Positions 14,013 through 63,150 of a stretch of 64,000 nucleotides of DNA are shown here, piece after piece. The stretch comes from Chrysomallon squamiferum (taxonomy: Eukaryota; Animalia; Mollusca), in assembly GCA_012295275.1 (NCBI GenBank), contig CM022673.1:25916001-25980000 (forward strand), read 5' to 3'. Position numbers and translations under genes: made by a program. Under the pieces are notes generated by a model. That model did no database searches and was not told the DNA's origin. It saw nothing but the letters and a program-made list of their open reading frames with translations. The first letter of the stretch is position 1. Each line of letters starts with the position of its first letter.

Positions 14013-14483
14013 CAAGACTCTTAAAACCTGAAATGAACAACAATAAAAATTAGAGAGTAACTGTAGTAACACTAACACATAGAAAGTTCAAAAGCGGTAA
14101 CACATGTGTATTGGAAAAATACGTAAAGCTAAAACCAATATTAGCAAAGCTAAGAACATTTATTACTAAAGTTTCTAAAGCTAAATATTATATTGTTAGT
14201 ACCTTTGTTATTATGGTTGTAGTGGTTATCCAGCTGAATTTAAAGACATGTAGAATTCTAGTTTTATTTTATTTTATTTTATTTAAATAACGAACAATGA
14301 TCTCAACTTCTTAACATATTTTTATTCTCTAAAATTCCTTTCTTTAACACATTTTATATACAAAGATTAAACATTTAATATAATAACATTATAATTATTA
14401 TTTTTAAATCTATACACAAAAATCATCACAATATATCTAAATTATAATACTATATTTTTTTCTGTCAGTTGGTTTTCATTTCA

Positions 14484-34000: not shown

Positions 34001-37000
34001 CATCTGATAGATTATTTATGAAGTTTTTCCATTATAATTGTTTAATTTCTTTCTTTTTTCATTTTTTTTCATTAATTTTAAAAAGATAAATATTTTCAGA
34101 ACAAGAAATATTCTAATTTTTATAATAATATTATCCTATAATTATTGGAAATTAAAATAGTTTTACTCCTTTAGTGTTATATTTTATAATGAAAAAATTT
34201 GTATGGGAATATTTTAACATTCAGTTTTCATTTTTATTTTTGTGTGTAACTTTGGTTAATTATTAATTTCATTTAAAGTAAATGACAGTTGTTATGCCTT
34301 ACTTTTAATTTCTTTCATTAAAAGTGTAAACATGTCAGATAATACCCCTGCAATTTTTAAGGAAATAAACTGCCTTGTCCAAAGTATGTAAAGGATGAAC
34401 AAAAATGAAAATAAAAGCACAAATACTTACAAATGGAATGGCTAAGTTCACAAAGATCAAAAACATGAAAAAGAAAATGAAAATTTTCACCAAAAGAACA
34501 GAACTGAAAAGTAATTATCACCAAAATATTTATAGAAGTTATCATATTTAATCACAACAATTTGTAAAATTAATTTCAATTTAAAATAATTAAATAAATC
34601 AATAAATCAATAAATCAATAAAAAGCATAATGTTTACATGATTAATAATATTCCTTGTTATAAATCTCAAAAACATGAAATTACTTTTCTAATGCTATCT
34701 ATTAATATAAAGTTAATTACAGTGTAAATACATTTTTCTAATGATGTAACTTCTGTGAGAAAACCATTAATGAAATAAAGTAATGGTTTATTGCAATCAA
34801 TTTCAAAATAATAAATAAATCTTAAAATTTAATGTCAAGAAAATAAATATTAGTAATAAAAAAAAAGAGGAAAAATTCAGTAACAATAAAGATGATGAAA
34901 TTTTTTTATTTCCAATATTTCTATTACAGTGGATTAGTAAGCCAATTTTTCTTTGGAGGTTTTTGGAGGTTCTTGTTTCTTTTTTAGAATTTCATAAATT
35001 CTTCCATAACAAGATGTTCAATTAGAAATTTTACATTTATCTTTCAAAGTTTATACTTCTATACATACCGTTGAGACATCACCAACTTTTATGTTCAGAG
35101 GTTCCTCTTCAAATGTAAATGCATCAGAGTCACATGGTTTAAAACCAGGAGGTTCATATTCTGGAGGAGTGCCTACAAATCCAGAATTTGAAAAACATGA
35201 GATCTAAGTTATATCAAAAGTCTTCATTATAATGCAGCAAAACAACAACAACAACAACAACAATAACCAAAATAAATAAATAAATAAATAAATAAACAAA
35301 AATTGAAATCTTTAAAAAAAGAAAGAAAACAATTGTTCAGTATTAACTATTTATGCAGGTGAAAAAACGAAAGACAAATACTATGATTAGTATTATTAAA
35401 AATTAAGAAGACACATTTATATTATTATATTAGAAATACTTGTAATTACCAAATATTTATTCTAATTTCTTCAACACATTCTTTTATTTTTAAATAAAAA
35501 TTAAATCCATAAACATGTTTTTTTTCAAATATCATCATAATTAATAACCTGTCTGTTTAATTAAATACTAATTTCTAAATCAAGCTACTACATAGCTTTA
35601 TGTGGAATAATAATTAGTCTAATTTCATTTTACATGACATATTAATATTTTTTTCATTATATTAATTTAAACAAATAATTTCACACAATATTCATACAGT
35701 CATCATAATAGAGTAACTTCATGGTCATCATGACATCATCTGGTAAAGACTGCAAAGTCTGGGTTAAGACAACTATTGTTCTTAGAAGACGAATTGTTGC
35801 TTTTTTTGTTTCTGCAGGTGAATGAGCAGTTGAAATCTTTTTCTTATTTCTGTAAAAAAAATGTTAAGAGAGTAAAATTATTATGCTAAACATTAGTATC
35901 AGTCTTTTCCTTTCTTGGAACTTTCTTTTAAAATGTTTTCTTTTTTTTAAAGGAAAGAAAAATGAAGAATTTTAATAATTAAAGATCATTTTACCTGTAA
36001 ATATCTACACTTGGTTCATTTGTGTAGGTAAACTTGAAAGTATATGATTCAATTACAGTCTGAAAATATAACGTTTTTATTATTTTTCATTTTATTTATG
36101 TTACAATTTATTACTAGTTGTGTTAATATATGAAAATTAAACTGAAAAAAATACATTAACTTACAAAATATTTTTTTCCTGTTGTTTAATTTGTTTTAGA
36201 AAAAAATAATTTAAAAAATAATAATTAAAAAATAAATAAATAAATACAAAACAAATTTAAAAACTGGAAGGTCTGATGACAATGCCCAATACACACACTT
36301 ATTAAAATAAATCTGGAATTTAATAATTTAAATTAATTAATCATTTGAATGATAGCTAAGACCCAATTTATTAATATGACAAACTTTTCTGCTTTATATA
36401 TACTAAATTATCAATATTAGTTTTACCTCTGGTTTGTTAGGATCTGCATATATCTGAAAATATACAATCAAAACAAATTATTGATGTCAATAATCTAAAA
36501 AAACAATATGTATAATACAGATAAGATATTACCAACAAAATATGGCATATAAATTGTTTATTATAAACAGTATCAGTTTTAAAAATCTATTTCTTGTTCT
36601 TTCAATTTTACTTGTAATCATAAAAATGTATACCAACTATAAGCACAAATCCTATTTAGACTCACTGTTAATTATTAAATTGTTTTAACTTATTTTCTAA
36701 TGTTTACCTTTTACTTATTTTGCCTCCACAAAAATTAATTTTAAGAAAATAAAATTTTATTAATACACAAAAAATATACTTACTCCGATTATCAGCATCC
36801 TAAGCTAAATAATCAAAATAGTAAAATAAAAAATAAAAGAAACTGTAAATTATTGATTTTTTTTCTTGACCAAAATAATTAAAAAATAAAATAATAATAA
36901 TAAAAATAATAATAAATATATTATTAACAAAATATATGCAGTATGAATACATAGAAATTTATTCTTAACTAATACAGTAAGAAAAAAATAAAATTTGACA

Positions 37001-37848
37001 AATAAACTTACATATTTCTTGTCCAGTGCATCAAAACATCCTTTCATCCAAGTGATTACCTGACAAGCACCAGGACAACAGCTATCATTACGAAGAATTT
37101 TTAAATTTAAGTCTGCAAAATAAAGTTATAAATTTTAAGGAAAGATATGAACACTCGTTTCTCATTGAAAGACAGTGAATGTAATATTTAACTGGCTGTT
37201 ATATTAATTTAAAATTGACTGTTTCATCTATTTGTTTTATATAAGATTCTTATCATTGGTTCATCAAAAAGAAAATTCAAATTTCAAATTAATCATTTAT
37301 TTTTAAATATTGTAATTTTTGTAAATTTTATTTATTATATTTAAATGAGCCTTTATCCTTAATAAGATGATCTTTAATGATAATTTACATTAAATTTAGT
37401 TCTTCAGATATAAATACCTTCTAGACATCTATCTCCAAAAGCACGTTCTGGGAATATTGCTCGCAAATATGTGATATTTGAAATAGATACAGCAAGCAAT
37501 CTTTTTACAAACAAAGCAGACTGCTGTTCTGTCACTTGCTCAGTTGGAAACACAGACGCCCACTGTTAAAAATTATGATTAAAAAACAAAACAATTGTGT
37601 ATATGTTATTGTATATGTCTGTATTATGTAACAACTCTGTAATCTTTTATTTTCTAATTTATTAATTTTTGATTTTTGTTAATATTAAAAAAAAATAATA
37701 ATAATCATAATATAAAAAATATATAATATAATCTGCCAGTCTGACATTACTCAGAATCAGAAGAAAAAAGTTAATTAACGTTATGGAAAAGAAAATACTC
37801 AACACTTCCTGTTTTTTCCTCTGATTTTTGTAGTGTGGCTGTTGTCAT
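30042..37848 (-). CDS. HORMAD1: Meiotic HORMA-domain protein (HORMAD1/2, Hop1-like) with PHD finger and winged-helix region
   Basis: Exons: ~37804-37848 (ATG; donor ambiguous), 37418-37562 (VFPTEQVTEQQSALFVKRLLAVSISNITYLRAIFPE), 37012-37112 (WMKGCFDALDKKY), 36784-36804, 36427-36453, 35995-36059 (VIESYTFKFTY), 35698-35849 (MTMKLLYYDD), 35069-35172 (TPPEYEPPGF), 34431-34441, 33730-33883, 33360-33447, 32972-33060, 32666-32782 (PHD), 32424-32489, 31823-31986, 31446-31542, 31180-31238, 30591-~30684 and 30042-30140 (ends KIRRRKSSIVSKSILV*, closure-motif-like). A probable 5' UTR exon ends at 38403. Confidence 0.92.
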
Positions 37849-41623: not shown

Positions 41624-43820
<2,197 letters not shown>

Positions 43821-46395
43821 GAATCCTGTGAAAGATTCAGTTCATCAAAATCTTATTTACTTCAGTACAGTTCCATGTTAGTAATGCAGTTGTATTTTGT
43901 TTTCTGTACAGAATTTTTTCAAAATGTATCTGCTATGCTTACAGAGGACATGAAATTATATGCTTAAGCACGTCTCTTGAATAAATATAACAAACAATAA
44001 CTTTTGCTGCATTTATGCATTAATAAAAATTTGAATTAAACTACGAAGGAATTGAAACAATATTGAACAGGTAAAAATAAACACAAGTTAACATTTCAGT
44101 TGGTCATTTTTGATTTCATGTTTTATGTTGTTTTCTGTAATTTATATGAAATAAAAGATTATCCATCAAAAAGACATTATGTTCCAACATCAGGACTAAT
44201 GTATTTATTTTTATTTCATTTGATGTTAAATTATATTTTTAATGCTTAACTGATTTCCTTTGTTGGCAATTAAATATTTATCTAGTTTCCTTTTGTTCTT
44301 TTTTTCTTTTGGAACTTTATGCTGATAAAAAACGTCTATGCATTTCACAGTTCAGAACATTTACTAATTTCTCTCGTAGGCATTTTGAACATGAATCAAC
44401 AAAAGATTTTTATGCTATTAGCATGCTTAAATAAATAACATATCAGTTCATAAAACTCATTTCAGCAGTGCTATGCAGAAAAATTATACCAAAAGGGTTG
44501 CTTATCTCAAAGTTTTTTCAAGTAAACTGATAACACATAAAAGAATGAAGGTTTTAACATTTCACTTTTTAAAAATTATTAATGGAAGGAATTTACTGAC
44601 ACACTTAACAGTTAGTCTCTAAATATGATTCAGGATTATGCAACTAAACCAGGATGGAACAGTAATGGAAATCTCTCTGGATATTGATCCAGAAACCAAG
44701 TGGCATCAGGCTAACATTCACTGAGATGCAATGTGCTGCATTTTAATATTAACTTACAAATATTGGTAATTTGTTTATTCTATAAAAGTCAGCTGTTTCA
44801 GTTCTCATCACCATTGAAAAGCAGAGAGAATGAAAACTGATCTGAAAACAGATTTCTGTTTTACTCATTTAATGTCATTGACTACAGTAGCTTGTTTACA
44901 TACAATTTTTGGATACTGTTTATCTTATTTTTACTAATACCTAATTTTACATTTTCAAAACTAGCAAAGTTAAGTCTGACATAATCATCGACATTCATTT
45001 TCATATGTGCAGCAAGCCAATTAATAATGAACTGATTTTAGATCCCCATTGATATGCTTAGAAAAATGTTCTATAGACAATCATCTTGAAACACCCAAAT
45101 TGAAGTTATTTTATTTTGCAATTCCTAAATATGCTTTTTAAATACCATGCATCTCCTATTCATTATCAGCAAGAAACTCAACATTTTTACATCCAGTATT
45201 TCAATTTCAACAGACTTCCATAAATAAATAATAATAAAATGAATTAACTATGTCTTTTTATTGTTAAAAAATTAATAACATACACAAGTCCTTAAAAACA
45301 TTTAACACAGCTGCTTAGATAACAAACACTATTTAAAACATAAAGCAAGACATTGTTTGTTAACATTTTAATGATTTTGTACAATGAAAATATACATAAA
45401 ACAAATAAAATTTAAAAAAAAAAAGAAAAGAAGAAAGATGTGCTCCCTTACAAACAAGGAAATTAACTATACATATTGCAAGAATAAAGCACAAACAGTA
45501 CCCAAAAGAACTAAAATAGTGTCTACATTACAACTGTCATTCACCACAATGCATCAGTTAAAATATGATACACTGTATAATGGAATTTTGGTAAACAAAT
45601 CCAGTAGCAAGACATTTTGTCACTGACAGGCTAAAATAATTAACCAATCTTTCAGTGAAATGATGCTGAACTACAGAACCAATGTTGTTTTTTTCTGTCT
45701 CATTAGATCTTATAATTTATCTTTACATGAGCAAAGACACAGTTTAACTGTGTTTTGGAAACCAGAAGTAACAACCCTCTCCACTAAAACTAAATGAATC
45801 GTAATGTTTTGTTCATTTATAATCCCCTTATCTAGACATAAGAGAACATTAAATTCATAGAGTTTATTTAAAATAAACAAAAATAAATAAATATCAAAGT
45901 AAAAACTCAGATTTCTGAGCAAGTCTGAATACTTGTTTTTAAACATACTGATGTGAATGGATTTGTGTAAAAGTGAAGAACAAATTATTTTTCACTCAAA
46001 ACAATTAAGGTGATATTGATCTTAAGTGAGCAACTTCAAATCAAACCCTAGCCCTATTTTAAAAGTAAAAAGAAAACATTTTTTTTTTTTTTTTTTTTTT
46101 TTTTTTCAAAGTTTTCTTAGAATTTTGTATTGAACAAAATTAACATTTCAAAATTCAGTGATGAACAATTTATCTATTTACCTACTTCTGACATTTAATC
46201 AATTAAAGCAATGATTTAAGGGAACTGCGAACCAATATTATTTTCGTTTATTTTTACCTTCAGTGCTCAAGAATGTCATTTTTAAAACTAAAACAAAAAC
46301 CACTGGCGTGTAGATTCAACTGAATTATCAGCTCAGTCCCTTGCGTCATTACCAGTTTACACAAAATGTTCTCGTCTAGATTTCTGTCATGTTTT

Positions 46396-48799
46396 TCAAG
46401 CCGCAGTGAACTCTTCATCAATGGATTTGTTAATAAATGCTTTAGTGTCGTATTCTTCTGAGGGTGGTTCTTCGTTTTCGTCATTGTTCTGGAATGAGTG
46501 GTCAGGATTACCCATCCCGTTGGACTCCTGTGGCCGGAAGTCTTGGCCTCCGTACAAGTAATCATCCTCCGTCTTTTCTGTTTTGATGGTTCCTTCGGGA
46601 ACGAATTCATCTCCTTCGCCTCGTTCTCCCTTCCTGCGGCGATCTTTACTTCGGCTTCTTCTAGATCTTTTTCTTTCCCGAGATCGACTTCTCCTCCTGT
46701 CGCGTGACCGACTTCGCCTGACTCGCTTTCTGTCTTTACGTGGACCAAGATCCTCGTCATCGCCTGAACAGAAATTTTTGAAATTTCAATAATGCAACCA
46801 TTTTTTTCATTTTTTTAAAAAGTTTTATTTTATTTTCATTTATCTTATTTACAGCCGTTGTTAATATATAGACACAGTAATTCAAGTACAAATTCACAGT
46901 TATTTTGGATGATTTTCTTTCCCTATATACAGAACTCTTTCATTTTCTTGGAATATTATTAAAAATTACAATTGTGATTATTAAAAATCTATTTTTATTT
47001 GTAAACTGTATCTTACAAATCTAAGTATATTAAATAAAATTCAGTTAATCTTTAGTTCAAACTATTAATAAGACATTAAAATTTATAGACTGACATTCAA
47101 TTATATAAAATTATTTAAAAATTTACCGTCAGGGATTTCAATCCTGTGCCTGTCTCTGCTGCGTGAACGACGTCTGTCTCTACTTCTGCTGCGCCTTCTC
47201 TCTCGACTTCGGCTACGTCGTCTGGGTCGTTCTCGTTCGCGACTTCGAGATCTTGGCCTGCGTTCATCAGGCTGAATGCTATAAAAATACAAACATATCA
47301 AGTGTCAGCAGCTTAAAATTCAGAATGCAGTTAAAGATTTCAAATAATAGTGAAACAGTTATTGTAAAAAGGAGCAGTTATCCTTGTCGTTATTACATTT
47401 CCAAGAAAAGTACTGTTAAAACATATCTACCTTTTTTCAGTTCTTACACACATACAGACAAATCTTTGCAAGATTATTTTTATTTCTTTATTTATATTTT
47501 TTTTATCCAACAGAAATATTAGTATTTCTGCCAAGTCTAAATTTGTTACCTGCTAATAATATGCATGAATAAATTGTCAAAACAAACACTAACCCATCAC
47601 GAACAGCGTATTCATCTCTGCCTGAAAATCTGGTGTTAACATCAGGTCCTCCTTTACGAGTTCCTCCCAAACCACCTCCTGAATGAAAAAAAATAAAAAT
47701 GAAGTAACAATTTGTTGTTAAGACTATTCAGTTACTGTTCCATTTCAAAAAATGAATTGCATGAACGTAGTTATTTTATTTTTAACTAAAGTTTACTGCA
47801 GTCTCAGTTACCTGAACTATTTGAACACAGAATCCAATGTAAATACAATGTATGAAGCACACTCGCATTCATATCAAAAGAACCACAGGTATCTTGTAAT
47901 CTGTCGAGGCTAAATCAGTGATACTTCAACAATGCCAATAAAGAGACTTGCCTTTATTTATCTCTATCTATTTTTAAAACCTGGCAAATTATGTTATCAT
48001 GGAAACATTACCTAGCCTCCTTGGTCTCCAACCCTTCACAGTTCGACCACGTTCAACATCCACCAGAACACGTCGTCCATCAATTTTCTTACCATCGGCA
48101 TGTTTGTATGCAGCTGAATTTTAAAAATATCAATAACATATTTAAGAATAACCAAAGAAAAATGGATAATATAAATGAACATTAGCAAATTAAGCAAGTA
48201 TAATCTTCATCTTTTTTTTTTTTCTTATTATCTACATCATATTCAAATTCTATCCCCAAAAGCAACATCTTGATGTTTTCACTATTTTTCCATTCCTTTC
48301 ATTTAAAAAGCAATGGAAATGGTTTTCATTCCCTTTTTTTTTTTTTTAAATAAAATTTTGTATTCCTATAATTAAGAATCTTATAATCTGAAAATACAAA
48401 ACCAGAAATGAAATTAATACCTGTTGCTGTAATGTCCTCTGAAAAAAAATTGATTATTAATAATAAATCCTAATTAAGCAAACAAACCAATGCTGTGTTC
48501 AAATACAGACATTTTAATGTAGTGACTAACAGTATTTCAACTAAACACTGGCTTTGTCTGATAATAAATTAGTACCTTGTCATCTTCTTGCCTGAAATAA
48601 ATTTACCTGAAATACAATTATTCCCCTTCTAAATAATAATGTATAATTAATTAGTTTTAACACCCTTGTTTTTTTTTTTTGAATCCATTTTTAAAAAAAA
48701 AGAAAGAAAAAAAAATAGGACTAACCTCTCTACAAAAAATTAACTTAATTGTACAATAAAAAAAAAAAAGAAAATTAAAAAAAATATATATATAATAAT

Positions 48800-48831
<32 letters not shown>

Positions 48832-49241
48832 GGCTATATGTATATGGAAAAAAAGAAAGGAAAAAAAAGTTCCATCCTCAATTTAAAGTAAAAATAAATA
48901 ATTAAGTTTTATTTTTTAAGAAAAAAAAAGAGATAAATAATAGATATGGGCTGTATGAAGAAGAAATACACTTGAAACTTACGTCCCTACCTACCAGACT
49001 CTTTTGTTCGCTAGCTTGCAACTCATTATCTCCTGTGATGGCTACTGGAGTAACACCATCCAATAGGCTCCGCAATGATTTTTTTTTTTTTTTTTTTTTC
49101 AGAACTTACCAATGAAAACTTACCAAGTGCCTTTTTTTTTTTTTTTTTTTAATTTATTTTATCTTTATCTCAATGTTTTAAATTTTATTAATGTTCTATT
49201 TTTGAAAATTATTTTTTGACAAATTTATATACTTGTATGTG

Positions 49242-49273
<32 letters not shown>

Positions 49274-49811
49274 CACATGTTTGTTTTGTTTTTATTTTTG
49301 TATTTTAGTTTTTTTTTAAAAAAAAAAAAAAAAACGTGAAACAAAATAGTAATAAAATAAACTGTAATTAATTTTTTTTTGTGTACAAATTTGTCAAGAT
49401 TTTTTTTCATTATTCCCAGTTTATTTCAAGTCTTTTTTTTTAAGAGAAAAAAGAAGACATTTAGAAGGCCTGTATTAATCAAGTTGCTATTAATGCTGGG
49501 TTTTGGCAATATTTAGTTTTATCTTTCATTCTTTGTTGTTGTCTTTTTTTTTTTTTTATTTAGATTTTAAAAAAGGTATGACAATTATGTTTCCACTAAA
49601 CACCCACATCTTACCACTTTATACAAACCCACAGCTATAGCAGAAATCTTTGGTTTGTTTAGGTAACAAGATGCCCATAGGCCATCAAGTTGACTCTGAA
49701 GGAAAAAATAGGAGAACCATTTTAGTAGTGGACCCCACAAATACTTCAAAGAACATGAACTTACCAGTTACCCAAAAATCAACATATTATATATTTCACT
49801 TACCATCCCAG

Positions 49812-49844
<33 letters not shown>

Positions 49845-51297
49845 CCATAGCTTATATTATTTTTTTTAAGTTTGCTTGTTGGTCGTTTTTTTTAAATCTT
49901 CCCCCACCATTTGTTCCTATTTTAATGTGATAGTTTATTTTCTTATTTTGAAACAAAAATAGTTTACAGTGGTATTTTATTTAATGTAATTCACGCAAGT
50001 CTTCAGATTTAAAAAAAAAAAAAAAAAAACGAAAAAGAAAAGTGAAAAATCCTTCCTGCATTCCATTGTCATCAATCTTAAACCTACACATCCACCGACT
50101 TACCAACAGTTATTTTAATTTCTTCAGCTCAATTATTGTGATAAACATATAACCCAACCATCACAAGCTCCACAATTTCTGGATCTATCAATCAAGATTA
50201 ATAATGCTTTGTAAATTTATGCTTTACAATAGTACCAGTTTATTTATGCATTTGTACAGAAAAACATTTTTTACTATGTAATATGAAACTGCCAAAAACA
50301 TTTATTATTACTATTATTATTTTTCTTTTTAAATATATTTACATGTTCTTGAGACTTCCTAACCAACCCAATGTCTAAAATGTATTTTCTGGTCATTCAA
50401 GAAAACCAATCAATACTTTGAAAATCAACTAAGGAAAATGTCTGGTTGGTTATTGCCCACAGAAAAAACTAATTTGACCTTTCATTTTAAAACAGTGCTG
50501 ATCTTTTATATCTGAAGAGATGATCTTGGAAATGTAGTCCTGAAAACCTATTTGGTTTATAGTGATTAACTGGTCGGACTGGTCAGACATCACCATGACT
50601 AATTTATTCTTTTGTCCTCCTGAATTTTATTTACTTTAATTACATGTAATCAAAAGAAATATAATTCTAAATTTTACATTTTTAAAGGTTCTAAAAAAAT
50701 ATAATAATAATAATAATAATACAAATTTATTCAACCAAAAATTAGTTATAATCGGTAAATAAAAGATTATTTAAATACTAATGATTATAACAAGACTGTC
50801 ACTTTGTTATTTGTACATTAACGTATTGTTTTAAGTTTGGTAATTTGCAGGACGATTCAATCTTTGTCACCCATTAGGCTATTTCCCATTCTAGCCAATG
50901 CCCCAAAAATGATTAAATTTTTCTTCTTTGATTGCAAAATGCACAAAATGTTGTGTTAACAAATACATTAGCCTTGAATGGACATCAGGTAGTTTCTTCA
51001 ACACAAATAAAGTTATAATTAGTCAATAAAAAACAATAACTTAATTTACTGTTGTTACTAAATTAATTGAGAAAAAGTATAATTTAAAAATCTTTTAACT
51101 GGCCAAGTATCATTCTTTAATACGCTGTTCATATCTGCATAACTTTCTAAATATTCTGCTTATTTATGATCAGTTGTTTAAATATATACTTGATGTCATG
51201 TCCTGCTGTTGAAGATTATATATATATATATATATATTGCTATAATAATACAAACATAAAAATTTCTGTTATCAATAATTTTTGATTATAATTATTA

Positions 51298-51347
<50 letters not shown>

Positions 51348-54300
51348 TTCTTTCAAAGAAACATAGATAAAAACAAGTACAGAAAAAGTATGTAGGTCAT
51401 TACTTGATGTTCCGTTTCATATTATCAGCGGAGAAATACTGATTAAAATTTTAACACTGGCTTATGGTAGTATTGATTGCCAGGCATTTCTAATTATGAC
51501 AGAGTTTGTAAGAAACCCAAGTTTTTCACTATGTATACCCAACAGCTAGAGTGCCTGCAATGGGGCACTGGTTAAGACAAAAAATAAACATGTGTCTTTG
51601 GCTCAACTACATGTTTTATAATTTGACATTTTCAGAACAGATTAAAAGAAATAAAAATTTTACAATTTTAAAAATTAAGAAGTTGAATTAAAAAAAAAAA
51701 AAAAAAATGAAATAATAAACATCGTCAATCTGATTTTAATGTTGTGAAATGCATCCCTTACATTTCTTTATACATTAACATCACTGCAACATGAATATAG
51801 CCTGCTTCTTACTCTGTCTTTATCATTTGAAAATTTGTTTAAAGTATTCTTACGGTAACATTAGGCTGTTGAATTTTTTTACCAGTATTCTTTGAGGTAA
51901 TTATGAGGTAATTATCATGCACCTGAGTTAAAACGTTAACTGATTTCGTATTTTAAGGATAATTAAAAAATCAGTGAAAAGTCAAAGTTGAGTTAGAGAT
52001 AATTTTAGCATTGCAGGAAGTTTATATTTTTTCAAATTTTTTTTAGGGGTTTTTTTATAGATAAAGCAGTGAGATTCAATAGAAGCAAAACAGAAATATC
52101 TTATTGCAACCTGTTTTATGGTCTAAAAATAAAAAGAAAGACAGTCCTTCATGTAAACCTTTTAAATGTCAGAATATAATTGATTTGTTTGAAATGCTTT
52201 AAGTAACAATCTCTGTGACCATTAACATTTTCACTGCTATTATTCTCTGCTGGAGATCTAATGGAATAAATAAAATAATGATGTTCAGCAATGAGTGACT
52301 CATTAATTTGACTTACTGAATACATTAGCAAGTTTAGGACTGAACATTTTTTAACCCTGACATTTATTTATATAAACCTAACACATTGTTCTGCTGTGGA
52401 TCTGAAAGAATGAAGATTTTATTTTGGCATGTGAAAGTGAACTCAAATGTTTTACTACTGCGGCAAAAATATTTTGAACCTCTCATTTTACACAAATATC
52501 CCTTTATTTAATTTTTTTTATATTTTTTTTTTATATAAACAGAAAAATACATTAAAACTAATTCTAGAGTTCCTATATACCAAAACTATAGATATAGGTT
52601 TTACTGGAACTACACATTCATTCTAAAGCAAAACTGCACTTTCCTTTTATATATATAAAAATAAATAAATACAAGTTGTGAAATTAAAAAAGAAAACAAA
52701 TCAGAATTTGTAATGTTTTCTGCTGTTACAATTTTGATTTAAAATCCATGTTTTTTTTATGTACTCAGTGATTTGGGACATTTTGTAATTTCTGGTTAAT
52801 TCTGGTTATAATCATCTGCAGAACTGGTTTCAAAACCAAACAGAAATACAAATGTGGTTACATTAAATTTGTACCATCATAGCTACCTAAAAATATAACA
52901 CCAAAAAAATAAATAAAAAATCCCATAATAACCAAATAAAAAAAAAGGTTTATTGCATCATCTTTTGTTTTTTTGTTTGTTTGTTTGTTTTAAAAGCAAA
53001 ACATTAACGTGTAGAAACTTTTTGTCTTCTGGGTCAAGAGAAACTGGATTTAATATTATTTCTGTGCAGTATAATCATGTTGGTTACAGCACTAACTGAT
53101 GAATAATCCAGTAAACAAGCTGTGACACCTGAATTGTGTGGATCACAATTAGCTATTGCTAACATAATTTGTCCTTAATTAACAACGTAACAATGCTAAC
53201 AACATATGGCAAGTGTTGTTATTTCGCAACAATTGCAATAAACGATACAGCACACGCAAGAAATTTGGAGACATTTGTTTATTAAATTTTAACTTTTTTT
53301 ATTATTCTGTTCCTGCAAACTTTAAGCAGCATGTCAAGTTATTCATATATTACTTGCTTCTTATTGTACGAGTAAACACCAATGAAAAATTCGTTCACGA
53401 AATATATTAATTTCAGTTTTAATGAATTTTTAGATTCAGGTAAAAATGAATGAAAAACTGAAGATGTGAATCAAAAGTTGAAAATTTATAAATATCAAAA
53501 ATATACTGATTAAGTATGGCCAAATACTTAATACTAATATTACTACTTTTTAATAAACAAAATTATTTTTTTTATTTATTATTTCTCTTATTTAAAATAA
53601 AAATAAATATTCACTGTGTGTATACATTGGTATAAAGAGAAACATACCAGTGTAACGTTCTTAAGAAAAAATGAATTTCATTTAATGCTTATTATAATCA
53701 TTTTATGTTATTAATGTTCCTTTATATTCCCATGGGAAAAACAACAAAATAATGTTATTGGTTATTATTCCATGACTCCTGTTAACAAAAATATAACCAA
53801 AACTTTATCATTATCTAACACAAAAGATGGTATTTATTGATTTATAATTAATTTGTGCAATTTTTTAATTAATATATTGAAACAAACCAAAATGGATGAA
53901 CAAGTAACTAAATAAATAAGTAAATAAAGAAATAAAGCAAATGCAATTTTTAATCTCTACTCACAGTGCATGTCTCTCTCATGTTCATATTCAATAAATG
54001 CATAGCCTCGAGGTTTGCCATTGTTGCGATCGTGGACAAGTGAAATCTGGAAGAAGCAAATAAATAAATAACATAAAATAATAATAAATTAAAATTATTG
54101 GCTGTGTATAGACTACAAATCAAGTGGCGTCTCTAATCTGTTTAATGGTTTGCAAATTGCAATGCAAATACCCATTGATAGTGTTAGTTATTTATACATT
54201 ACAATTACATAATTACCAATACATTTTTGTGACAATTTGAATCAATAGCACAGTATTACTCCATTTAATGAGAGATTCGATTCCCTCATCACTCTGATTT

Positions 54301-57300
54301 ATTTTATTAATGGTAACTATAAACATCTATTAAGCCATGCAGAGTATTATTAATGGTTTTTAAAGCTCTATTACGACTTTTGTCAGCTAAATCTACATTT
54401 CGTGTTTCTTTTCAGTTTTAACATATTGCATCATTGATTGCTTCACTATCTATAGTTAATCAATAACAAAACTAACATTGTCTGGGATTTCTTTTTGTAC
54501 GTGGCAGACTTTTCACTTTATGAAATTAATTATATGAAGTTTTGTTACTGAAACTTGAAGTTTTAAAAATATCAGTTAACTGGCATGCATCATCTGTAGG
54601 AAGTTTACCTCAGTATAATCATGAAAATACTTATTTACTTTAAAAAAAACTAACTCCAAATGTTTGCAAGGACACAAAGACTATCCATTTCAGTTAATAT
54701 CCAAAAGGTAAGTGTACGAAAAATATTTCTACAATTCTTCTTTTGCTGAAAATATTCGTGACCACCATAATCAAAATATTATTAAATAGTAACTGTTATT
54801 TATTATTTTAAAATAAAAAGGGAAAAAAATACAAAATAATCTTCCACTTGTTACGAGTAGTCAACATAATGTTAGTAAATATGGAACACCTCACTGTCAG
54901 ATTCCTCAGCATAATGACCATTACGTAACTATTTCTGTTTTCATTCATTTTCTGTTTGATATTTTAATATTTTCAAAACAGTTTCTCTGAATTCTTTCTC
55001 ATTGCACCACATGCATCTATTTCAAAACATTAAAAAGGTATAAATGTAATAAAACTAGAGTTCTGTAACAAAAAACTGTTACACGTTGGGAGTCCATTAT
55101 TAGGCAAATGAACACTCAATTGAATGTAATTATTGCTCACTGTAAAGCCTATGACGTGTGTGTGTGGGCATGTGTAATTATAACTATGCTTAATATGCTG
55201 TATTAATTACAAAGCTCTTGTAAAAAAAAAAAAAAAAAAAGAGGATGATTTTGAATTAATGGCTGATGAATTTCAAAAATCTGCAAAATGAATGTGAATG
55301 ATGGTAAAAAATATGGACATGTATAGAATTTAAACCTCAGTGCTGTTTTTCAATTTAATGGAGAATTAATTTTCTACACATCCATATTTTTTGTAGTCTA
55401 CGCACTCCATTTCAACTCTTTTACAAATTACACATGCATGTAAGCATGCACATGCACACACCCACACACACAAGCTTGAATGCTTATGCATACACACAGT
55501 TCATGAATTTAAAAACACTAGCCAGTTGAAGTTGTATCACAGGCAGCCATAATCATCAGTAAAAAAGCCCTGACAATGAATTAAAACTTTAATGCTTTAA
55601 TCTTCTTTTATGTTCCTTTTGACGATTCTTAGTAGTGTTTTCCATTACTCCTTTTTGTTCAAACATTTTGCAGAGATTATATATCATAATTAAATTATTT
55701 CATACATGTAACACTGAAACATTCATTAAACATTTTAAAATTGGTTGGTTATGATAACATATTAAATGAAATTTAAAACCGAAGTTATTTTTACAATACA
55801 AACTATTAATTATCTTTATTTTTTTTATGGCAGTACAATTAGCCCTCTACATGTAAGAATGGTGTAAATATTAAAATTAATTCTTATGGCTGTAAAATCA
55901 CATTAATGTCAGTTTCAGTAAGGAAAATTCACTATGCCAATATAATCAATCACTTAAAACAATGTAATTTTAAATAACCATGTCTCACAAAAACAGATTG
56001 TGTTACCAAATCATTTGTTTATAAACGTTTATGGTTAAAAATACCCTGGTTGAAATTTTCATACAGTTATACAATAAACTGCTTCTCCCATCCATAAAAT
56101 ACATTCACCATAAATCTGCCATTTCATTTCTCCAGATTAACACAGACAAAACACATATGTTTAATTAAACAAAATTACTATTTTCCTTTGAACTGCAAAT
56201 GTAATAAAACGTTATTATAGATGGTTATTTTAATTAACCAATTACAAATAAATATACGTATCTACACTGGAAAACAGTTTCAGAAACTTGGGAAATGTAA
56301 CTAATGCCTCTGTCATGTTGACTGCTACCGAAAAGGTAGCCAATCTGTTTATACACCAATTTAGTTTTATTTAAATCCAGCACGGACATGAACAGTATTT
56401 TTAAAATTATTATTCCACTGCTAAATCAGATAAGTCACACCAGCTTGGATTTGCTTTCTCAAAAATGTAATTTTGTACAATAGGCAGGGTATGCTGTTTT
56501 TGCTGGATCACAAGAACCCACCAACTTCAATCACCAAATGCTTGCTCACCAAAATGTGCAAGCTGAACCCATTTGGTACATAATTTTGTTAGTTCAGTCA
56601 TTCAACATAATTTGGTAATTTATATTTCATAAACACTGCATCGTAACAGTTTTCTTTTTTGATGTGGCTGACACAAATTAGAGCTCTATTTGGATTTCAA
56701 ACAATTGTAATTTTTGTCCTCCTGATGCTGAGCCTCACAGTGTCCCTACAATACAGGCACCACTGTATTTGCAAAATAATAATTCTCATCAGTCAGAATA
56801 ATTTAATACTAATTTTCACTCTCCATATTAATTAATTTTATTTATTTATTATTTTTTTTTTTATCTCTCTCTTTCTCTCTATATATTTATATCATCTTGT
56901 TTTGATGGTGTGTTTTTTAATACTGAAATCAATTACTGTATGTACTTGTGTATAAGTCGAATTTTTGGGAGATTATATTAAGGTAATATTTTGGGGGTCG
57001 ACTTATACATAGGTAATGCTTTTGTAGCTGTTGCTGAAGAGTCGCCATTTTGACTATTTTTTGCTATGGGATGCATCTAAAATAATCGCGGTCTTTCAGC
57101 TTTTCAAAAATATAATTTTATCGTATAAAAATTTTTGAAAAATTAAATAACAAAACCAAATGTGAATGTAAAACATGATATTCTTCCGTTTAATGACATA
57201 AAAATACATTTTAAAGCGAGAAAACCGTCAGTATGGCATTATGCCTTACGGCGTCTTGCAATGATCTAGGAATGCAGACTTCTCTGCCAAATTGCACTAA

Positions 57301-60300
57301 ATATCGGACCTAATTTCATAAACAAAACTCACTTGTTTAACTGTAAAGAATTTGGTGAAATAATATTGCAATCATCATTAATATCCACTACCGACAAATT
57401 TTGTAAATCATAGAACGGCTAAATATAACGGTAAGTTAGGTCTCCATTTTAGACCTATTACATTAAAGAGATACTATTTATGATACATTTAGGCTATAGC
57501 TCGTGTAATACATGCATTTATGTTATTATGGTATGTTCGTGCAAGTTACAGCTCCTGCAAGTTATATTACAGTAGGTGTACAATGTAGGCCTTCATGGCA
57601 CTGTCACACTGGTCTAAAAATAGTGACAGTGCCTGGAATCTACAGTCGACTTATACACAAATAATACCTAAAATGACGCAATTTTTGGTCTTAAAATACA
57701 CATCGACTTGTACATAAGGTCGCCTTGTACACAAGTATATACGGTATTGTACATACAGAAATGGTCAAAAGGAATCAAATTAAATTTGGTGTTTCTATAA
57801 CTTGTTTGCAGAGACAGGTAACATTAGTAGTTTAAGGAGCAAATATTTTCTCCCACAGGCAAAGTCCAGTTTTGAGGCCTACAGCCTTTTTACCAGTCAT
57901 GGATAAAGTAACAAATACATTGTAATTAGTCTAATTCAAAAACAGATTGGTTAGATAAAGTTGACAAAAGGAGATGGGAATCTTACAGAGATGATATATA
58001 TCAACAAAAGGGATTAGCTGAAATCCTTTCCATTAAAATGTTTTGTACAGACTCTTTAAACCAGTTAATTATCTGAAAAACTAAATAGATTATCTATCTA
58101 CATCTGACGTCAGCATTAGTATATATATATATATTACAATGCACACTTCAAGAAAGTTTTGTTAATAATCTAAATGGACCAAAAGAAATCGGTGAAGAAC
58201 TTGTTTGGCCAAACATTTCAGTTATCTGACTGAGACTTGATAGCAATAATTTAAGAAATGGATATTCCATCAGTTTCAGATATATATATATACAAATGAA
58301 AAAGGGTTTTTTTTTTTTAAATTATTCTTATAAAAGAATACAAAGTAAATGTTGATTATTGCCCTGGTCCAGCAGGTTGTTGAACATTGTCAGTTCATCA
58401 AAATTTAATCAATATGTCAATAAAAAAAAAAAAAAAAAAAAAATCCTTTCAAGAAGTTCCTTTTAAAAAACAACAAAACTTCAAAATTTCTAAAATTTTG
58501 CCCACTATGAACCAAATAGCTGTACCAAAACTCAATATTAAGCCCTTTAATCGTTTGTAATATTCATAAAGCACCTTCCCTTGAGGCTAAACTCCCTTGA
58601 GGCTGTCTGCGGCTGACAGATTTATTGAACTGATGTGCCTCTTACCAACTCACTGACATGATACACTTGAGGTGACACATGATACCAGCACATTTGCATA
58701 AATATTTCAGAAAGCTTTTCTTGTCTCTTTCTTTTCTCTTTCCTCTCTAATTTAGCAGAAGAAATATTTATTTAATGATACATTTCATTTAAAAAGGCTG
58801 TTCGGCTCACTAGTTTTTGTTACTGCAATAAGTATCTACTCTAGTGTTGAAAAATTACAAAGACAATTTTCCTAAAATTTACATCAATTTTTTTTTTTTT
58901 TAGACTATTTGCAGTTCTCCTTGTTGTAATAAATTAATTTCAACATTTACATTAACAGTACTTAATCTCAATTTGTTAATTCCACGGAAACAGTTTTTGT
59001 TCGGCATGTATGCTGTAGGTAGAGGAATGACTCAAACCATTGATAAATAAGCAGGCTCTTGCAACAAGTATAAAGTACTTTATGGCAGCTACAATCAATA
59101 GGCAGTATTAACAGCTGTTTCATGCTGGGACACTTAATTGGCTTATTATAGCTGGTACACTTCCACTCCATAAGGATTTTTCTTTTCAATAATCAGTCTG
59201 GTTGCTCAGTTCTGAAAGGTGTTGCTATGGCCACTGAGTCAACATTTGACAGTTAATCATAACAGCTGCTGAAGTATCGAAGAACCATACCTGAGGTAAT
59301 ATTTTAATTTGTATTAATATGTACGCACGTAACACTTAAATACAATCAGCTGGATTTCTCTTCTCTGTGCTTAATATTTACAAGTTCATCCTTACTGTTT
59401 ACAATGATTAATATTACTTGAAAGTAATAAGTAAGAATGATTAAGTAATAACATTTGAAAATGTACTAAATATGTTGTCAAAAACAATGAGAGAATGGTA
59501 ATAAATTAGCTCTGGATTAAAACATTTCTAAAGCATGGTAAAGTCATTGGAAATAATATATATTTTTTTTAATGAAAACCTTTTGTTTTTCTTCTTCTGC
59601 AGAATTAAATTAATGAATGAACACCTGTTTTGAAATTGGGCACACAGGAGTTTAACATAAATAGCAGCACAACTCTGATAAGTGTAAACAAGAGAAAAAG
59701 AAATCACTGGTGCTGGAATTTGCCAATGTTCAGCGCAAATACCATGGCAAAAAAAAAAAGTCTAGATGAATGAAGTACTCAATAGCTTGTCTGATTACTG
59801 CAGATAAACATTCCAGAGTTTCTGTTGTGCATTTGAGCTGTAGTATGTGGCGTAACTTGCACCTGAAATAATCACTCTGCAGTCTCCAACATTTCCGACA
59901 ATCCAACAAGGAGAAAACTTATAACAAAGCTACAGTTGTGGTTTAAGTGGAAACCAAGAAAATTAATCTTCACAAGCAAAATAAACCCCCAGAAACAGCC
60001 TGAGTAATGTGTCAAAAGTATGTCACAAGAATAATAAAGAGTCTACAAAGTTAAGTTGTTGGATGATTGTAAAAAAGTAAATAGTTTGGATTTTAAAACA
60101 GCACAGCTTCTTTGTAATTTATGAAGTTCTAATTGTGATATTTGGAATATTTCTTCTTCTGAATACAACCGGTGCCTGTAAGGATAATGTATGCAAGTCG
60201 AGGTGGTGGACTTCCTATGTTTTACTGGGGTGATGAGGTGAGTTAACATGTGCGAGATTCAATTAGTATCTGTAACTCATTATTTTCTGTTTGTTACAGG

Positions 60301-61612
60301 AAACATTTTTCACCAATTTTAATTAAACCAAAGCTATTAGTTTAATTTTATTTATTTATTTATTTATTTATTTTTATGAAACTGCTGTCCTTTTAATTGG
60401 GGTAAACATTAAAAATGTGACAATTAAATCATATTATCTCCATTATCCATGTTACTGAATAGAAACAATATGGCCATGTTCGTGTGCATCTGGAAAACAA
60501 CTCCACATCCCACATAGTCGTTATCAGCCATGAAATAAACTGTGTTGCCTTGCAATACATATTTAATTTCATCAGCGAACACCTGTTTACCCAGCATAGA
60601 ATGAACAAACAAAAAAAAAAAAAAAACACCAAAAAAACCCCAGCCCGCTCTTAATATTTAATATGCATTGGGATTTCTTGTCACAATATATTTATTTTGG
60701 GATAGAGTATGCTCATACATCCTTTAATTAAACAGAATGATATATTAACATGCAGGATCACTATCAGAAGATGGCCAGATCTAAAAATAGCTAAACTGAC
60801 CCAGATATTAATGTCATTGTTGAAGGTATCTCTGACAGTTTACCTTGCAAGAACTGCAGCCTGCTGGTTAGAGAACAACAAGCCTGACTGCAAAAGTTAA
60901 TCTTATTTCAGACTATTTTACAATTCTAGACATGACTGGTAATCCAAGTCATTGGGAAGGTGCATATAAAAATGTATTTGCTACTAATAGAGAACATTTT
61001 TATTACCACCGTGGGTTTTATCTTACAAGCGACACACCTGAAATATCAAATACCTGACTGGAAGAAAGAAAATTAATCAATACAACTGTAGAGTTTTGTT
61101 AAATAAACAAAGTTTAATCTCTTCTTTTTTTATTCTTTCTTTCTTTCTTTCTTTAAAAATTTCTGAAATTCGGAATAAATCATTGAAAATTTGCTTTCAT
61201 AGTATCTACAAATCAAAACGCAAGGTTTATCATTGTAAAAACTGAAAATATTATGTAAAGTTATTTGCACTCTTTCAAAAAAATTGTGCAGAAATTAGGC
61301 CGCTGATTTCAACTTGAAAGAAAGTTATCTTTCCACATGTGCGAATGTAATTTTTGCCAAAATCGCTGTGAAATGAATCAATCAAGCTGTATTCCACTTT
61401 TATTTCCTCATTTTATGTTATTTATCTAAGTTGATAGTGTCAAAAAAGAAATCTATAAAACAGACAAAAAATAATCTGATGGAATTGCCAGAGGCAAGGT
61501 GTTTAGAGAGAGAGAGAAAAAAAAAAAAAAAAAAAAAAAAGATAAAAAGGGTGTGTGTATTATTTTTTTTTTTTTTTTTTTTTCCTTTTGAACTTATGTT
61601 TGAGACAGTCAG

Positions 61613-61643
<31 letters not shown>

Positions 61644-61969
61644 AGAGTGGGGAAAAAAATGTCTTTTTAAATATTACTCTTAGTGCCCAAAATGTCTTGC
61701 ATTTATACTATGTAGGTCAGAATGTTTGGTTTAACTGTCAAGTTCCATAAACCCATCTTGTTAGCTATTTCATACTAATGTATGTCAGATATATTTAGAA
61801 TTTTTTTTTGATTTTTTTTTTATCTAGTCAACTGAAGGAATGGATTTAACAAATTTAAGAGCTTTTCTAAAGAAAAACTTTTTTTTTTTTAAATACCAAC
61901 TAAGAACATTAGGGATTCTATCATTAATTAACAAAAAATTTAAAATACATCTTCATTTCTTAGAGACAT

Positions 61970-62048
<79 letters not shown>

Positions 62049-62130
62049 AGATGATGATGAAACATACCTTTTTAATTGGCCCATAGACTTCAAATTCTCT
62101 TCTCAGTTTTGATTCACTTGTGTCGTAATT
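46396..62130 (-). CDS. SNRNP70: U1 small nuclear ribonucleoprotein 70 kDa, 3' exons (5' exons lie beyond the right edge of the window)
   Basis: Exons 62068-62130 ([21 protein letters not shown]), 53965-54046 ([27 protein letters not shown]; RNP1), 48012-48113 ([33 protein letters not shown]), 47594-47678 ([16 protein letters not shown]), 47127-47278 and 46396-46763 (RS/RD-rich domain, acidic tail, TGA). Splice phases are consistent throughout. Confidence 0.96.
48977..50104 (-). promoter_or_regulatory. Cluster of intronic 5' splice-site (U1 snRNA-binding) motifs and a candidate poison exon in SNRNP70
   Basis: ACTTACCA (- strand TG|GTAAGT) at 49104, 49118, 49759, 49798 and 50098, CTTACCA at 49610, and a triple donor TG|GTAG|GTAGGGAC|GTAAGT at 48977-48995. 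Confidence 0.7.
56936..57744. mobile_element. Non-autonomous Tc1/mariner-superfamily (Tc2/pogo-like) element, about 809 bp, in an SNRNP70 intron
   Basis: Terminal inverted repeats: left ctgtatgtacttgtgtataagtcga versus the reverse complement of the right end ccgtatatacttgtgtacaaggcga. TA flanks both ends (56934-35 and 57745-46). Subterminal gtcgacttatac repeats are present and there is no transposase ORF. Confidence 0.85.
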
Positions 62131-62695
62131 TCAAAAAAAAAAAAAAAAACTTAATTATAATAAACTTTCATAGATACCATGTTATATTCAAATTAAAAAT
62201 GTAAAACAAGAAAATTTATGAAATGACAATTTCAATATAATAAAAAAAACAAAAAAAACACCCCAAAAACCAACTAAGTATATCTAAAAGGAATTCAAGT
62301 AATTTTATAGCAAATTGTTTTCTTGCTGTTAGAAATTACTTCTGTATTAGTATTTGGAAAGTATTGCTGTTTTTCTGACCTTTCTTTAAAAAAGGAGCAA
62401 ATGTATAATTTAAAAAAAAAAAAAAAAAATTACTGTGAAAATGAAAACAGCTGAATTTAGCATATGTGAATTTCAGGTCAAGAAAATTGGTGTCTCCAAG
62501 TTATATTATGACATTTGTATTTTTTTTTAAACATCTTCTGCATTTAACATTACAAAACCCAACAGTAAATTCAATTAAGTATCTATCTCTTTGGGTTTTT
62601 GTAAAAATGGAAAATCTAACTTACACCAAAAGTTGATGAAAAAAAAAAAAATAAAAAAAAAAAAAGATTTAAAAGAAAAAAAAAAAAAAAATAAA

Positions 62696-62746
<51 letters not shown>

Positions 62747-63099
62747 AAAAAAGGTAAATTACATGAAATGAATGTTAATTAAGGAAATGTTTAAGAAGAA
62801 TTAAAGAAAAAGCTGCTTTACAGTCTAAGCTCTGAATGTTTTCTAAGCACTTCTAAATATGTCTTTGTGCATGGGTGAAACAACCACACTGTAAAATCGG
62901 GGGTAAGCTTATTTCTCTTAGGCATGTTTCACATTCAAAGTATTATTTACAAGACAGAAGGAAAATACATTTATTCTGAACTCTAATTTTAAAATAAAAA
63001 AGAATATGCAAGATTACTTTTTAAAAATAATAAATAGAAAATAATCTTTTTTTTTTGTTGTTTTTGGGGGTTCTTTTTTTTAAATTATATATTCAAGCA

Positions 63100-63150
<51 letters not shown>

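What the first reader, a model, noticed from the sequence alone, without database searches (positions are those of the whole stretch)
49104..50104. Array of identical TG|GTAAGT U1-binding sites inside the U1-70K gene's own intron: a possible U1 snRNP dosage sensor
Seen: five exact ACTTACCA copies on the + strand (49104, 49118, 49759, 49798, 50098) plus CTTACCA (49610) and GTTACC (49767) lie within 1 kb. All are on the sense strand of SNRNP70 and none follows a coding exon. Rough chance expectation for ACTTACC at about 30% GC is about 0.05 per kb. Established: ACUUACC is the 5' end of U1 snRNA, so each exact site pairs from -1 to +6. The five exact sites and the 49610 site all have U at -2 rather than the consensus A, the side of the duplex stabilised by U1C and LUC7. 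Inference: decoy donors load U1 snRNP in proportion to its abundance and drive intron detention, poison-exon inclusion or suppression of intronic polyadenylation. This would be an autoregulatory circuit I do not know to be described for this lineage.
Basis: partly seen in the sequence, partly recalled or inferred. Interest (0 to 1): 0.8.

Follow-up and report, generated by a model that had tools for sequence, protein, structure and literature searches.

The report
Snail U1-70K poison exon, RNA-confirmed
A snail's gene for the splicing protein U1-70K splices in a small stop-carrying exon, seen in its RNA and matching a known human self-limiting switch in position and key letters, and surrounds it with extra splice-start look-alikes that likely help tune how much working protein is made.

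Summary
The cluster is real. Five exact TG|GTAAGT sites lie within 1 kb on the sense strand of SNRNP70 intron 7 in a gastropod (0 of 5000 intron shuffles reach five). RNA contigs show the exon 7-to-7a joint in 2 of 3 RNA runs laid. One run also shows 7a-to-8 through the 49610 site, and two show read-through past that donor. The 7/7a joint itself makes a stop codon. The exon lies in the same intron as the vertebrate exon 7a of the published U1C/U1-70K feedback switch (PMC3798272) and keeps its tandem B/C donor pair almost letter for letter. The five exact sites are not its donors: three lie 69-408 nt upstream of the acceptor and two about 500 nt past the donor. Their role, U1C dependence and NMD are untested. 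So the circuit is known in vertebrates, and my searches found no paper on it in molluscs. This scan noted it before on other DNA (octopus, springtail, another invertebrate); the RNA joints are what this case adds.

The parts
53965..54046 (-). SNRNP70 exon 7 (82 nt, RRM, ends in phase 1 after ERDMH)
   Evidence: tblastn, boundaries; its 3' end is the loose end joined to 49695 in X1 and X3
48114..53964 (-). intron 7 (5851 nt), same position and phase as the regulated vertebrate intron 7
   Evidence: human and fish 7a tails follow ERDMH
49615..49695 (-). poison exon 7a, 81 nt; a stop codon forms across the 7/7a joint, with two more in frame
   Evidence: both joints in RNA contigs; translation
49696..49725 (-). 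7a acceptor: best pyrimidine tract of the intron (16 of 17), predicted branch point about 27 nt upstream
   Evidence: use shown; branch point inferred
49673..49687 (-). 5' block of exon 7a similar to fish exon 7a (13 identities in 15 columns)
   Evidence: 2 of 2765 acceptor-like controls score as high in the 25-nt test, 14 of 2765 in the 40-nt local test (each count includes this site)
49621..49631 (-). site B-like weak donor (TGG|GTTTGTAT), 67 nt into 7a; no use seen
   Evidence: the label B is inferred from the 60/72-nt human exon lengths
   Evidence: X3 loose end at 49615 = start of exon 8; X1 record 1 and X3 record 2 read through
50098..50105 (-). exact U1 site, 408 nt upstream of the 7a acceptor
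   Evidence: function untested
49798..49805 (-). exact U1 site, 108 nt upstream of the 7a acceptor
   Evidence: no joint seen here, in the part that 7-to-7a splicing removes
49759..49773 (-). tandem pair: near site (76 nt upstream) and exact site (69 nt upstream of the acceptor), 7 nt apart
   Evidence: no joint seen here
49104..49125 (-). tandem pair of exact U1 sites 14 nt apart, 572 and 586 nt downstream of the 7a acceptor
   Evidence: untested
48012..48113 (-). SNRNP70 exon 8 (102 nt)
   Evidence: its 5' end is the loose end joined to 49615 in X3

Best explanation
This gastropod SNRNP70 intron 7 holds an 81-nt stop-introducing exon 7a that is spliced in RNA, is likely homologous to the vertebrate exon 7a, and likely works as the same U1 snRNP feedback switch, with the five perfect U1 sites as added flanking regulators. 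SHOWN: exon 7 is joined to the acceptor at 49695; the joint creates a stop; the transcript then either splices from the 49614 donor to exon 8 or reads on into the intron. INFERRED from the vertebrate work: intact U1C-containing U1 snRNP binds the B/C donor pair and activates the acceptor by exon definition. The product is lost by nonsense-mediated decay or nuclear detention, so U1-70K output falls when complete U1 snRNP is plentiful and rises when it is short. INFERRED from anatomy only: the sites 69-108 nt upstream of the acceptor would add U1-to-U2 bridging across a mini-intron distance and favour the poison acceptor. The closely spaced downstream pair would compete with site C and keep the rest of the intron unspliced, like human site D.
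For: Joints: loose ends at 49695 in X1 and X3 equal the last 30 nt of exon 7 (30 of 30); the loose end at 49615 in X3 equals the first 29 nt of exon 8 (29 of 29). I picked this acceptor and donor before the reads were laid (note). Stop at the joint. Same intron position and phase as vertebrates: the human 7a of Fig S2 translates after ERDMH to the tail of P0319, and fish locus L010 to the tail of P0341. B/C tandem: the 18 letters shared with human, mouse and zebrafish match at one place in the window, with 0 matches in 100 shuffles. Exon lengths to B/C are 67/81 nt against 72/85 in human. The 5' block, not used to select L010, matches fish 7a: 29 of 5000 shuffles, and 2-14 of 2765 acceptor-like controls by scoring, reach it. 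Cluster: 0 of 5000 shuffles. The exact sites pair with a stand-in for the U1 5' end more strongly (-9.1 to -9.9 kcal/mol) than 5 of 5 constitutive donors of the gene (-5.5 to -8.3). Breadth: 38 of 120 short U1-70K proteins (hand reading) end after the ERDMH motif in a tail that is neither exon 8 nor intron read-through, among them tick, crab, beetle, moth, fly and millipede entries.
Against: No test of U1 binding, U1C dependence or NMD was possible. The RNA support is assembled contigs from one study; 1 of 3 RNA runs laid (X2) gave nothing, and the 7a-to-8 joint is one contig in one run; contigs give no inclusion rate. Human site A has no counterpart, and the snail joint uses the C-like donor, which human cells rarely use. 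Most letters of B and C are also donor consensus, so part of the match could be convergent (5 shared non-consensus letters). The local alignment of fish 7a to the intron scored 31 (1 of 500 shuffles as high), but 1 of the other 19 window tiles scored 35, on a GAT repeat. L010 was fetched by the B/C motif, so its B/C match is circular; 24 of the 25 loci from that scan had no U1-70K exon. None of the five exact sites was shown to be used, bound or conserved in another mollusc, and no genome-wide background exists. Some database tails may be gene-model errors.
Confidence: 0.72

Rival explanations
1. Exon 7a is the real, homologous switch, but the five exact sites are not part of it: they are donors of further rare cryptic exons, such as a 75-nt candidate at 50178-50104, or leftovers of local duplications of donor sequence.
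For: The 75-nt candidate has a YAG acceptor and would also make a stop at the joint with exon 7. Two pairs are tandem (7 and 14 nt apart). An earlier AI note on another invertebrate saw perfect sites tripled by a local repeat (unchecked).
Against: No joint was seen at 49803 or 49764 in the stretch laid. Flanks are unrelated. All five share T at -2 and the sense strand. Even as donors of cryptic exons they would still serve unproductive splicing.
Confidence: 0.15
2. The exon and sites arose independently in molluscs and vertebrates, under the same selection for U1 feedback in this intron.
For: Much of the B/C match is donor consensus. The middle of the exon does not align. Arthropod tails differ among orders.
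Against: Two separate blocks match in the same order and at like distances from the acceptor, with shared non-consensus letters; the 5' block is not a splice signal.
Confidence: 0.07
3. The array mainly protects the 5.9-kb A+T-rich intron from premature cleavage and polyadenylation (U1 telescripting), so low U1 would truncate the transcript.
For: 22 AATAAA on the sense strand of the intron, 7 of them between 49981 and 49158. U1 sites that block cleavage are known in U11/U12-65K (PMC5473595, passages).
Against: AATAAA is no commoner on the sense strand (22 against 30). The 8-kb intron 6 has 0 exact sense sites. The sign would be positive feedback. The sites centre on a spliced poison exon.
Confidence: 0.04
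4. The cluster is chance or comes from a repeat element.
For: The whole-window count is ordinary; no genome-wide background could be counted.
Against: 0 of 5000 shuffles; the only such 7-mer cluster among 10,318 tested; no repeat similarity beyond low-complexity tracts.
Confidence: 0.02

Closest known systems
Vertebrate SNRNP70 intron 7 / exon 7a switch, U1C/U1-70K cross-regulation (Rosel-Hillgartner et al. 2013, PMC3798272; read: abstract, most of Results, first part of Discussion, supplement legends, Fig S2 text)
   Same: Same gene, intron and phase; alternative acceptor with a premature stop; weak and strong donors just downstream, B/C nearly identical; rest of the intron partly left unspliced; further donor-like sites downstream (human site D).
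   Different: Mollusc, whereas the paper tests human, mouse and zebrafish only; no site A; the stop forms at the joint itself; the C-like donor is the one seen used; five perfect sites flank the exon on both sides; the acceptor is 4.3 kb into the intron against +642 in human; U1C dependence and NMD untested.
Decoy exons in retained introns, including SNRNP70 intron 7 (Parra et al. 2020, PMC7373989; passages read)
   Same: Small non-coding exon in a long intron; donors that can engage U1; downstream retention.
   Different: Described as conserved from fish to mammals; blocking test not done here.
U11 USSE feedback element of U11-48K and U11/U12-65K (PMC5473595; abstract and passages)
   Same: Tandem donor-like sites in a spliceosome gene's own intron that activate an upstream acceptor.
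   Different: USSE sites are U12-type and bind U11; these are U2-type.
Ultraconserved pseudo-5' splice sites, e.g. ENOX1 (Nat Commun 2026, PMC13100119; passages, one section, supplement searches)
   Same: Intronic U1 sites tied to an alternative exon and conserved from invertebrates to vertebrates.
   Different: The 8 of 8 human-fly sites listed are in other genes; they silence a coding exon rather than activate a poison acceptor.

Membership tests
SNRNP70 exon 7a switch (U1C/U1-70K) | Lies in the intron after the ERDMH exon, phase 1 | tested here: met
SNRNP70 exon 7a switch (U1C/U1-70K) | Alternative acceptor joined to exon 7 in RNA | tested here: met
   2 of 3 RNA runs laid, one study
SNRNP70 exon 7a switch (U1C/U1-70K) | Premature stop introduced well upstream of later junctions | tested here: met
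   stop at the joint; four later introns
SNRNP70 exon 7a switch (U1C/U1-70K) | Closely spaced cryptic donors just downstream of the acceptor (A, B, C) | tested here: met
   B-like and C-like present at +67 and +81, 14 nt apart; A absent
SNRNP70 exon 7a switch (U1C/U1-70K) | Rest of the intron largely unspliced after the acceptor is used | tested here: inconclusive
   Read-through contigs in X1 and X3; contigs give no rate. RNA runs hold 0.40-0.49 of the words of 46200-54200 against 0.12 expected for exons alone, but DNA carry-over is not excluded.
SNRNP70 exon 7a switch (U1C/U1-70K) | U1 snRNP binds the regulatory sites; acceptor use depends on U1C | not testable with these tools
   needs pull-down, CLIP or knockdown
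SNRNP70 exon 7a switch (U1C/U1-70K) | Non-productive isoform degraded by NMD | not testable with these tools
   predicted from stop position only
Decoy exon (Parra et al.) | Non-coding exon with junction support inside an intron over 1 kb | tested here: met
Decoy exon (Parra et al.) | Blocking its donor lowers intron retention | not testable with these tools
   needs antisense blocking
U11 USSE | Tandem U12-type donor motifs | tested here: not met
   sites are U2-type GTAAGT; the U12 consensus is recalled
Recursive-splicing (ratchet) points | Acceptor YAG directly before the GT | tested here: not met
   0 of 5 exact sites: they read TTG, ATG, CTG, TTG, TTG before GT
Repeat or transposon-derived array | Similar flanks or copies elsewhere | tested here: not met
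   window only; no genome to search

The most novel reading that the evidence does not exclude
The U1 feedback switch in U1-70K is not vertebrate-only but an ancestral bilaterian poison exon, conserved at the nucleotide level between snail and human. This snail lineage has lost site A and surrounded the exon with five perfect right-handed U1 sites, so that its acceptor is driven from both sides, by intron definition upstream and exon definition downstream, giving a steeper, multi-site sensor of intact U1 snRNP.
Probability: 0.35. Interest if true: 0.72.

Novelty: new member of a known kind. Interest (0 to 1): 0.5.

Why it matters
It puts RNA evidence under the claim that the major spliceosome's own feedback loop predates the split of molluscs and vertebrates, with a non-coding exon kept in position and partly in sequence. 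A recent human-fly survey of ultraconserved pseudo-donors lists 8 sites, none in SNRNP70. The snail is also a natural version of the human 'site A mutant' minigene, which by the paper's text spliced through site C and, by implication, stayed U1C-dependent. That makes a direct prediction for a swap experiment. The mechanism itself is not new.

Tried and rejected
Genome-wide motif density: no genome held; only the window served as background. Rfam scan of 46000-64000: 7 matches, all microRNA models far below their gathering scores, those shown lying on TA repeats; no structured RNA. Long-range pairing between exon 7a and the G+C-richer island at 48985-49078: not better than shuffles (314 of 500 as good); the upstream candidate exon with that island 31 of 500; fish 7a with it 21 of 500; rejected as unsupported. 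Motif scan of metagenome contigs for other invertebrates: 25 loci, 1 with a U1-70K exon (a fish-like locus), no invertebrate. Lack of RNA cover at 49696-49812 is not used as evidence by itself; it counts only because contigs join across it. X2 laid nothing, which the tool says can be a filter effect. X5 (kind not on record) spans the stretch unspliced and may be the source DNA. The 7 of 120 proteins that end exactly at ERDMH (4 of them, P0245, P0251, P0269 and P0286, grouping weakly with the annelid Capitella in a quick tree) would fit a stop at the joint but may be contig breaks, so they are not counted. The careful tree did not finish; only the quick tree of 51 chosen rows was read. Recursive splicing, USSE and repeat origin were rejected (membership table). 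Literature: 10 searches; none listed a paper on this exon in molluscs or other invertebrates; subscription papers are mostly outside the library. The Drosophila RBP knockdown paper PMC4617972 (passages) does not mention regulation of the U1-70K transcript itself. In Fig S2 of PMC3798272 the boxes marking A, B and C are not in the text layer, so their exact places are inferred; supplement file 6 of PMC13100119 could not be searched.

Full report
OBSERVATION. The five ACTTACC copies stand at 49104, 49118, 49759, 49798 and 50098, with the two near sites at 49610 and 49767. On the minus strand they read as donors, and the five exact sites and the 49610 site have T at -2. The total in the window is ordinary: 8 against 5.1 expected, with 18 of 100 shuffles reaching 8. 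The clustering is not ordinary. The intron's shuffles average 0.31 copies and 0 of 5000 reach five; 0 of 300 window shuffles put more than 3 in 1 kb; and of 10,318 distinct 7-mers with at least 3 G/C and 3 different letters, only this motif and its one-base shift have 5 or more copies in 1 kb. Intron 7 has 5 sense and 0 antisense copies; the 8-kb intron 6 has 0 sense and 2 antisense; the first 46 kb have 1. The flanks are unrelated and no tandem repeat covers a site. No genome is held, so the genome-wide background is open.

GENE AND HOST. SNRNP70 runs on the minus strand. Exon 7 is 54046-53965, ending in phase 1 after ERDMH; the intron is 53964-48114; exon 8 is 48113-48012; three more exons follow. 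A neighbouring SLC26 gene is 87% identical to a Gigantopelta aegis protein and 70% to Haliotis, so the host is a gastropod near Gigantopelta (inference).

WHAT IS KNOWN. Rosel-Hillgartner et al. 2013 (PMC3798272; I read the abstract, most of the Results, the first part of the Discussion, the supplement legends and the text of Fig S2) describe a U1C-dependent acceptor at +642 of human intron 7. It brings a premature stop, needs nearby cryptic donors A, B and C bound by intact U1 snRNP, leaves the rest of the intron largely unspliced, and feeds NMD. They show it in human, mouse and zebrafish; the word 'invertebrate' does not occur in the text. Parra et al. 2020 (PMC7373989, passages) give the exon as 60/72 nt, conserved from fish to mammals, and cut retention from about 35% to 9% by blocking its donors. 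Pimentel et al. 2014 (PMC3973340, passages) show the 72-nt exon rising under NMD inhibition. The intron is the same as here: the human 7a in Fig S2, read on from ERDMH, gives the tail STTQLACS of protein P0319, and the fish-like locus L010 has its 7a after an exon ending at the same phase, giving the tail of P0341.

The best pyrimidine tract in the intron precedes an acceptor at 49695. The 18 letters that human, mouse and zebrafish share across their last two donors match here with a spacer of 5 instead of 4 nt; this is the only match in the window, with 0 in 100 shuffles. The human distances are 72 and 85 nt (counted; the label B is inferred). A second block near the exon start matches fish 7a in 13 of 15 columns. 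That block played no part in fetching L010; 29 of 5000 shuffles and 14, 2 and 6 of 2765 acceptor-like window positions (three scorings, each count including this site) score as high. Against this: most letters of B and C are donor consensus; the exon middle does not align; site A is missing; a plain local alignment scored 31 while one unrelated tile scored 35 on a GAT repeat; and 24 of the 25 loci from the motif scan had no U1-70K exon. I put homology at about 0.85.

RNA. Four RNA runs of one study and one run of unknown kind hold the stretch. I laid three of the four RNA runs and the unknown run on 49572-49812. In X1 and X3 a contig leaves the reference at exactly 49695 and continues with the last 30 nt of exon 7 (30 of 30, checked). 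In X3 another contig leaves at 49615 and continues with the first 29 nt of exon 8 (29 of 29). X1 record 1 and X3 record 2 run through the 49614 donor into the intron. X2 laid nothing; X5 spans the stretch unspliced. So exon 7a, 49695-49615, is spliced at both ends, and a form that reads through its donor also exists, as in human. Joining exon 7 to 49695 makes a stop codon from the last base of exon 7 and the first two of 7a, with two more stops in frame. These are contigs, so no rate or strand follows, and the 7a-to-8 joint rests on one contig. The RNA runs hold 0.40-0.49 of the words of 46200-54200, against 0.12 expected for exons alone, 0.32 for exons plus the intron below 49695, and 0.45 for everything below 49695. 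That fits retention but does not exclude DNA carry-over.

WHERE THE FIVE SITES SIT. Three exact sites lie upstream of the acceptor, at 408, 108 and 69 nt, in the part that 7-to-7a splicing removes; two lie 572 and 586 nt downstream of it. No joint was seen at the two exact sites inside the stretch laid (49803, 49764). They pair with a stand-in for the U1 5' end at -9.1 to -9.9 kcal/mol, against -5.5 to -8.3 for 5 of 5 constitutive donors and -8.0 for the used 7a donor (plain RNA parameters, no pseudouridine; consensus recalled). They fit the 'right-handed' class that LUC7L2/LUC7L favour (PMC11842720, abstract and passages). None is a ratchet point. Their role is inference: strong, apparently unspliced, one-strand sites on both sides of a poison acceptor in a U1 protein's own gene.

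BREADTH. Among the best 120 of 265 short U1-70K proteins, my hand reading finds 38 whose tail after the ERDMH motif is neither exon 8 nor intron read-through. They include vertebrate 7a forms and named tick, crab, beetle, leafhopper, moth, horsefly and millipede entries. The script's own bins were cruder (47 other, 40 read-through, 20 no motif, 7 ending there, 6 canonical); I moved 9 of the 47 out as read-through or canonical. This suggests alternative acceptors in this intron across bilaterians, but some entries may be gene-model errors and no DNA was seen. Earlier AI notes of this scan report the same exon, predicted or without RNA named in the lines shown, in octopus, springtail and another invertebrate. 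I looked only after reaching my reading; they are unchecked and not counted as support.

MECHANISM. Shown: acceptor use, stop at the joint, use of and read-through past the C-like donor. From established knowledge of the vertebrate switch: intact U1 snRNP on B/C activates the acceptor, the product is degraded or detained, and U1-70K output falls; loss of U1C reverses it. The snail layout (B and C, no A) resembles the human A mutant, which spliced through C and, by implication of the text, stayed U1C-dependent. Inferred from anatomy: the upstream sites at 69-108 nt would bridge to U2 at the predicted branch point about 27 nt before the acceptor; the 14-nt-spaced downstream pair would compete with C and favour retention. 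Confidence in the whole account is 0.72; in the exon as a real poison exon it is far higher; in a role for the five exact sites about 0.65.

VERDICT. Observation confirmed, interpretation partly supported. It works like the vertebrate exon 7a switch and meets the four sequence and RNA features tested; retention is inconclusive, and U1 binding, U1C dependence and NMD could not be tested. Ten literature searches listed no paper on it outside vertebrates, and the 8 human-fly ultraconserved pseudo-donors of PMC13100119 are in other genes. New member of a known kind; interest 0.5.

Noticed in passing
window 62130-62145 (minus): The exon matching NYDTSESK... (62130-62068) is preceded by a T run ending in GA, not AG. 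It is either an assembly slip at the homopolymer or a non-canonical acceptor.
   Followed up: partly
window 50104-50178 (minus): Candidate second cryptic exon of 75 nt ending at the 50098 site; joined to exon 7 it would also make a stop at the joint.
   Followed up: partly
window 50103; L010 921: A strong donor-like site lies 408 nt upstream of the snail 7a acceptor and one about 430 nt upstream of the fish-like 7a acceptor. PMC13100119 also lists one vertebrate-conserved pseudo-donor in human SNRNP70, whose place relative to 7a I could not verify. An upstream U1 site may be a shared feature.
   Followed up: partly
window 48960-49078 (minus): G+C-richer island (45% against 17% beside it) with a short local hairpin seen by eye, two stretches complementary to vertebrate 7a sequence (not better than shuffles) and three more donor-like sites at its end.
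   Followed up: partly
window 48575-48610 and 48420-48440 (minus): Acceptor-donor combinations near the intron's 3' end, including a YAG directly followed by a donor-like GT at 48606 and two possible micro-exons.
   Followed up: no
window 11499-14087 (minus): Single-ORF SLC26/prestin-like sulfate transporter, 87% identical to a Gigantopelta aegis protein.
   Followed up: partly
window 4399-6293 (plus): Two ORFs that look like a voltage-gated potassium channel subunit (T1-like domain, then pore with TVGYG motif), judged by eye.
   Followed up: no
window 41960-43442 (plus) and 36850-37125 (minus): Exon-like ORFs that resemble a ropporin-like protein and a HORMA-domain protein; names recalled, not searched.
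   Followed up: no
L010 1354-1365 and exon 8 start: Fish 7a tails begin SAY/SAN like exon 8 (SAYK), a hint that 7a may have arisen from a copy of the exon 8 acceptor; speculative.
   Followed up: no
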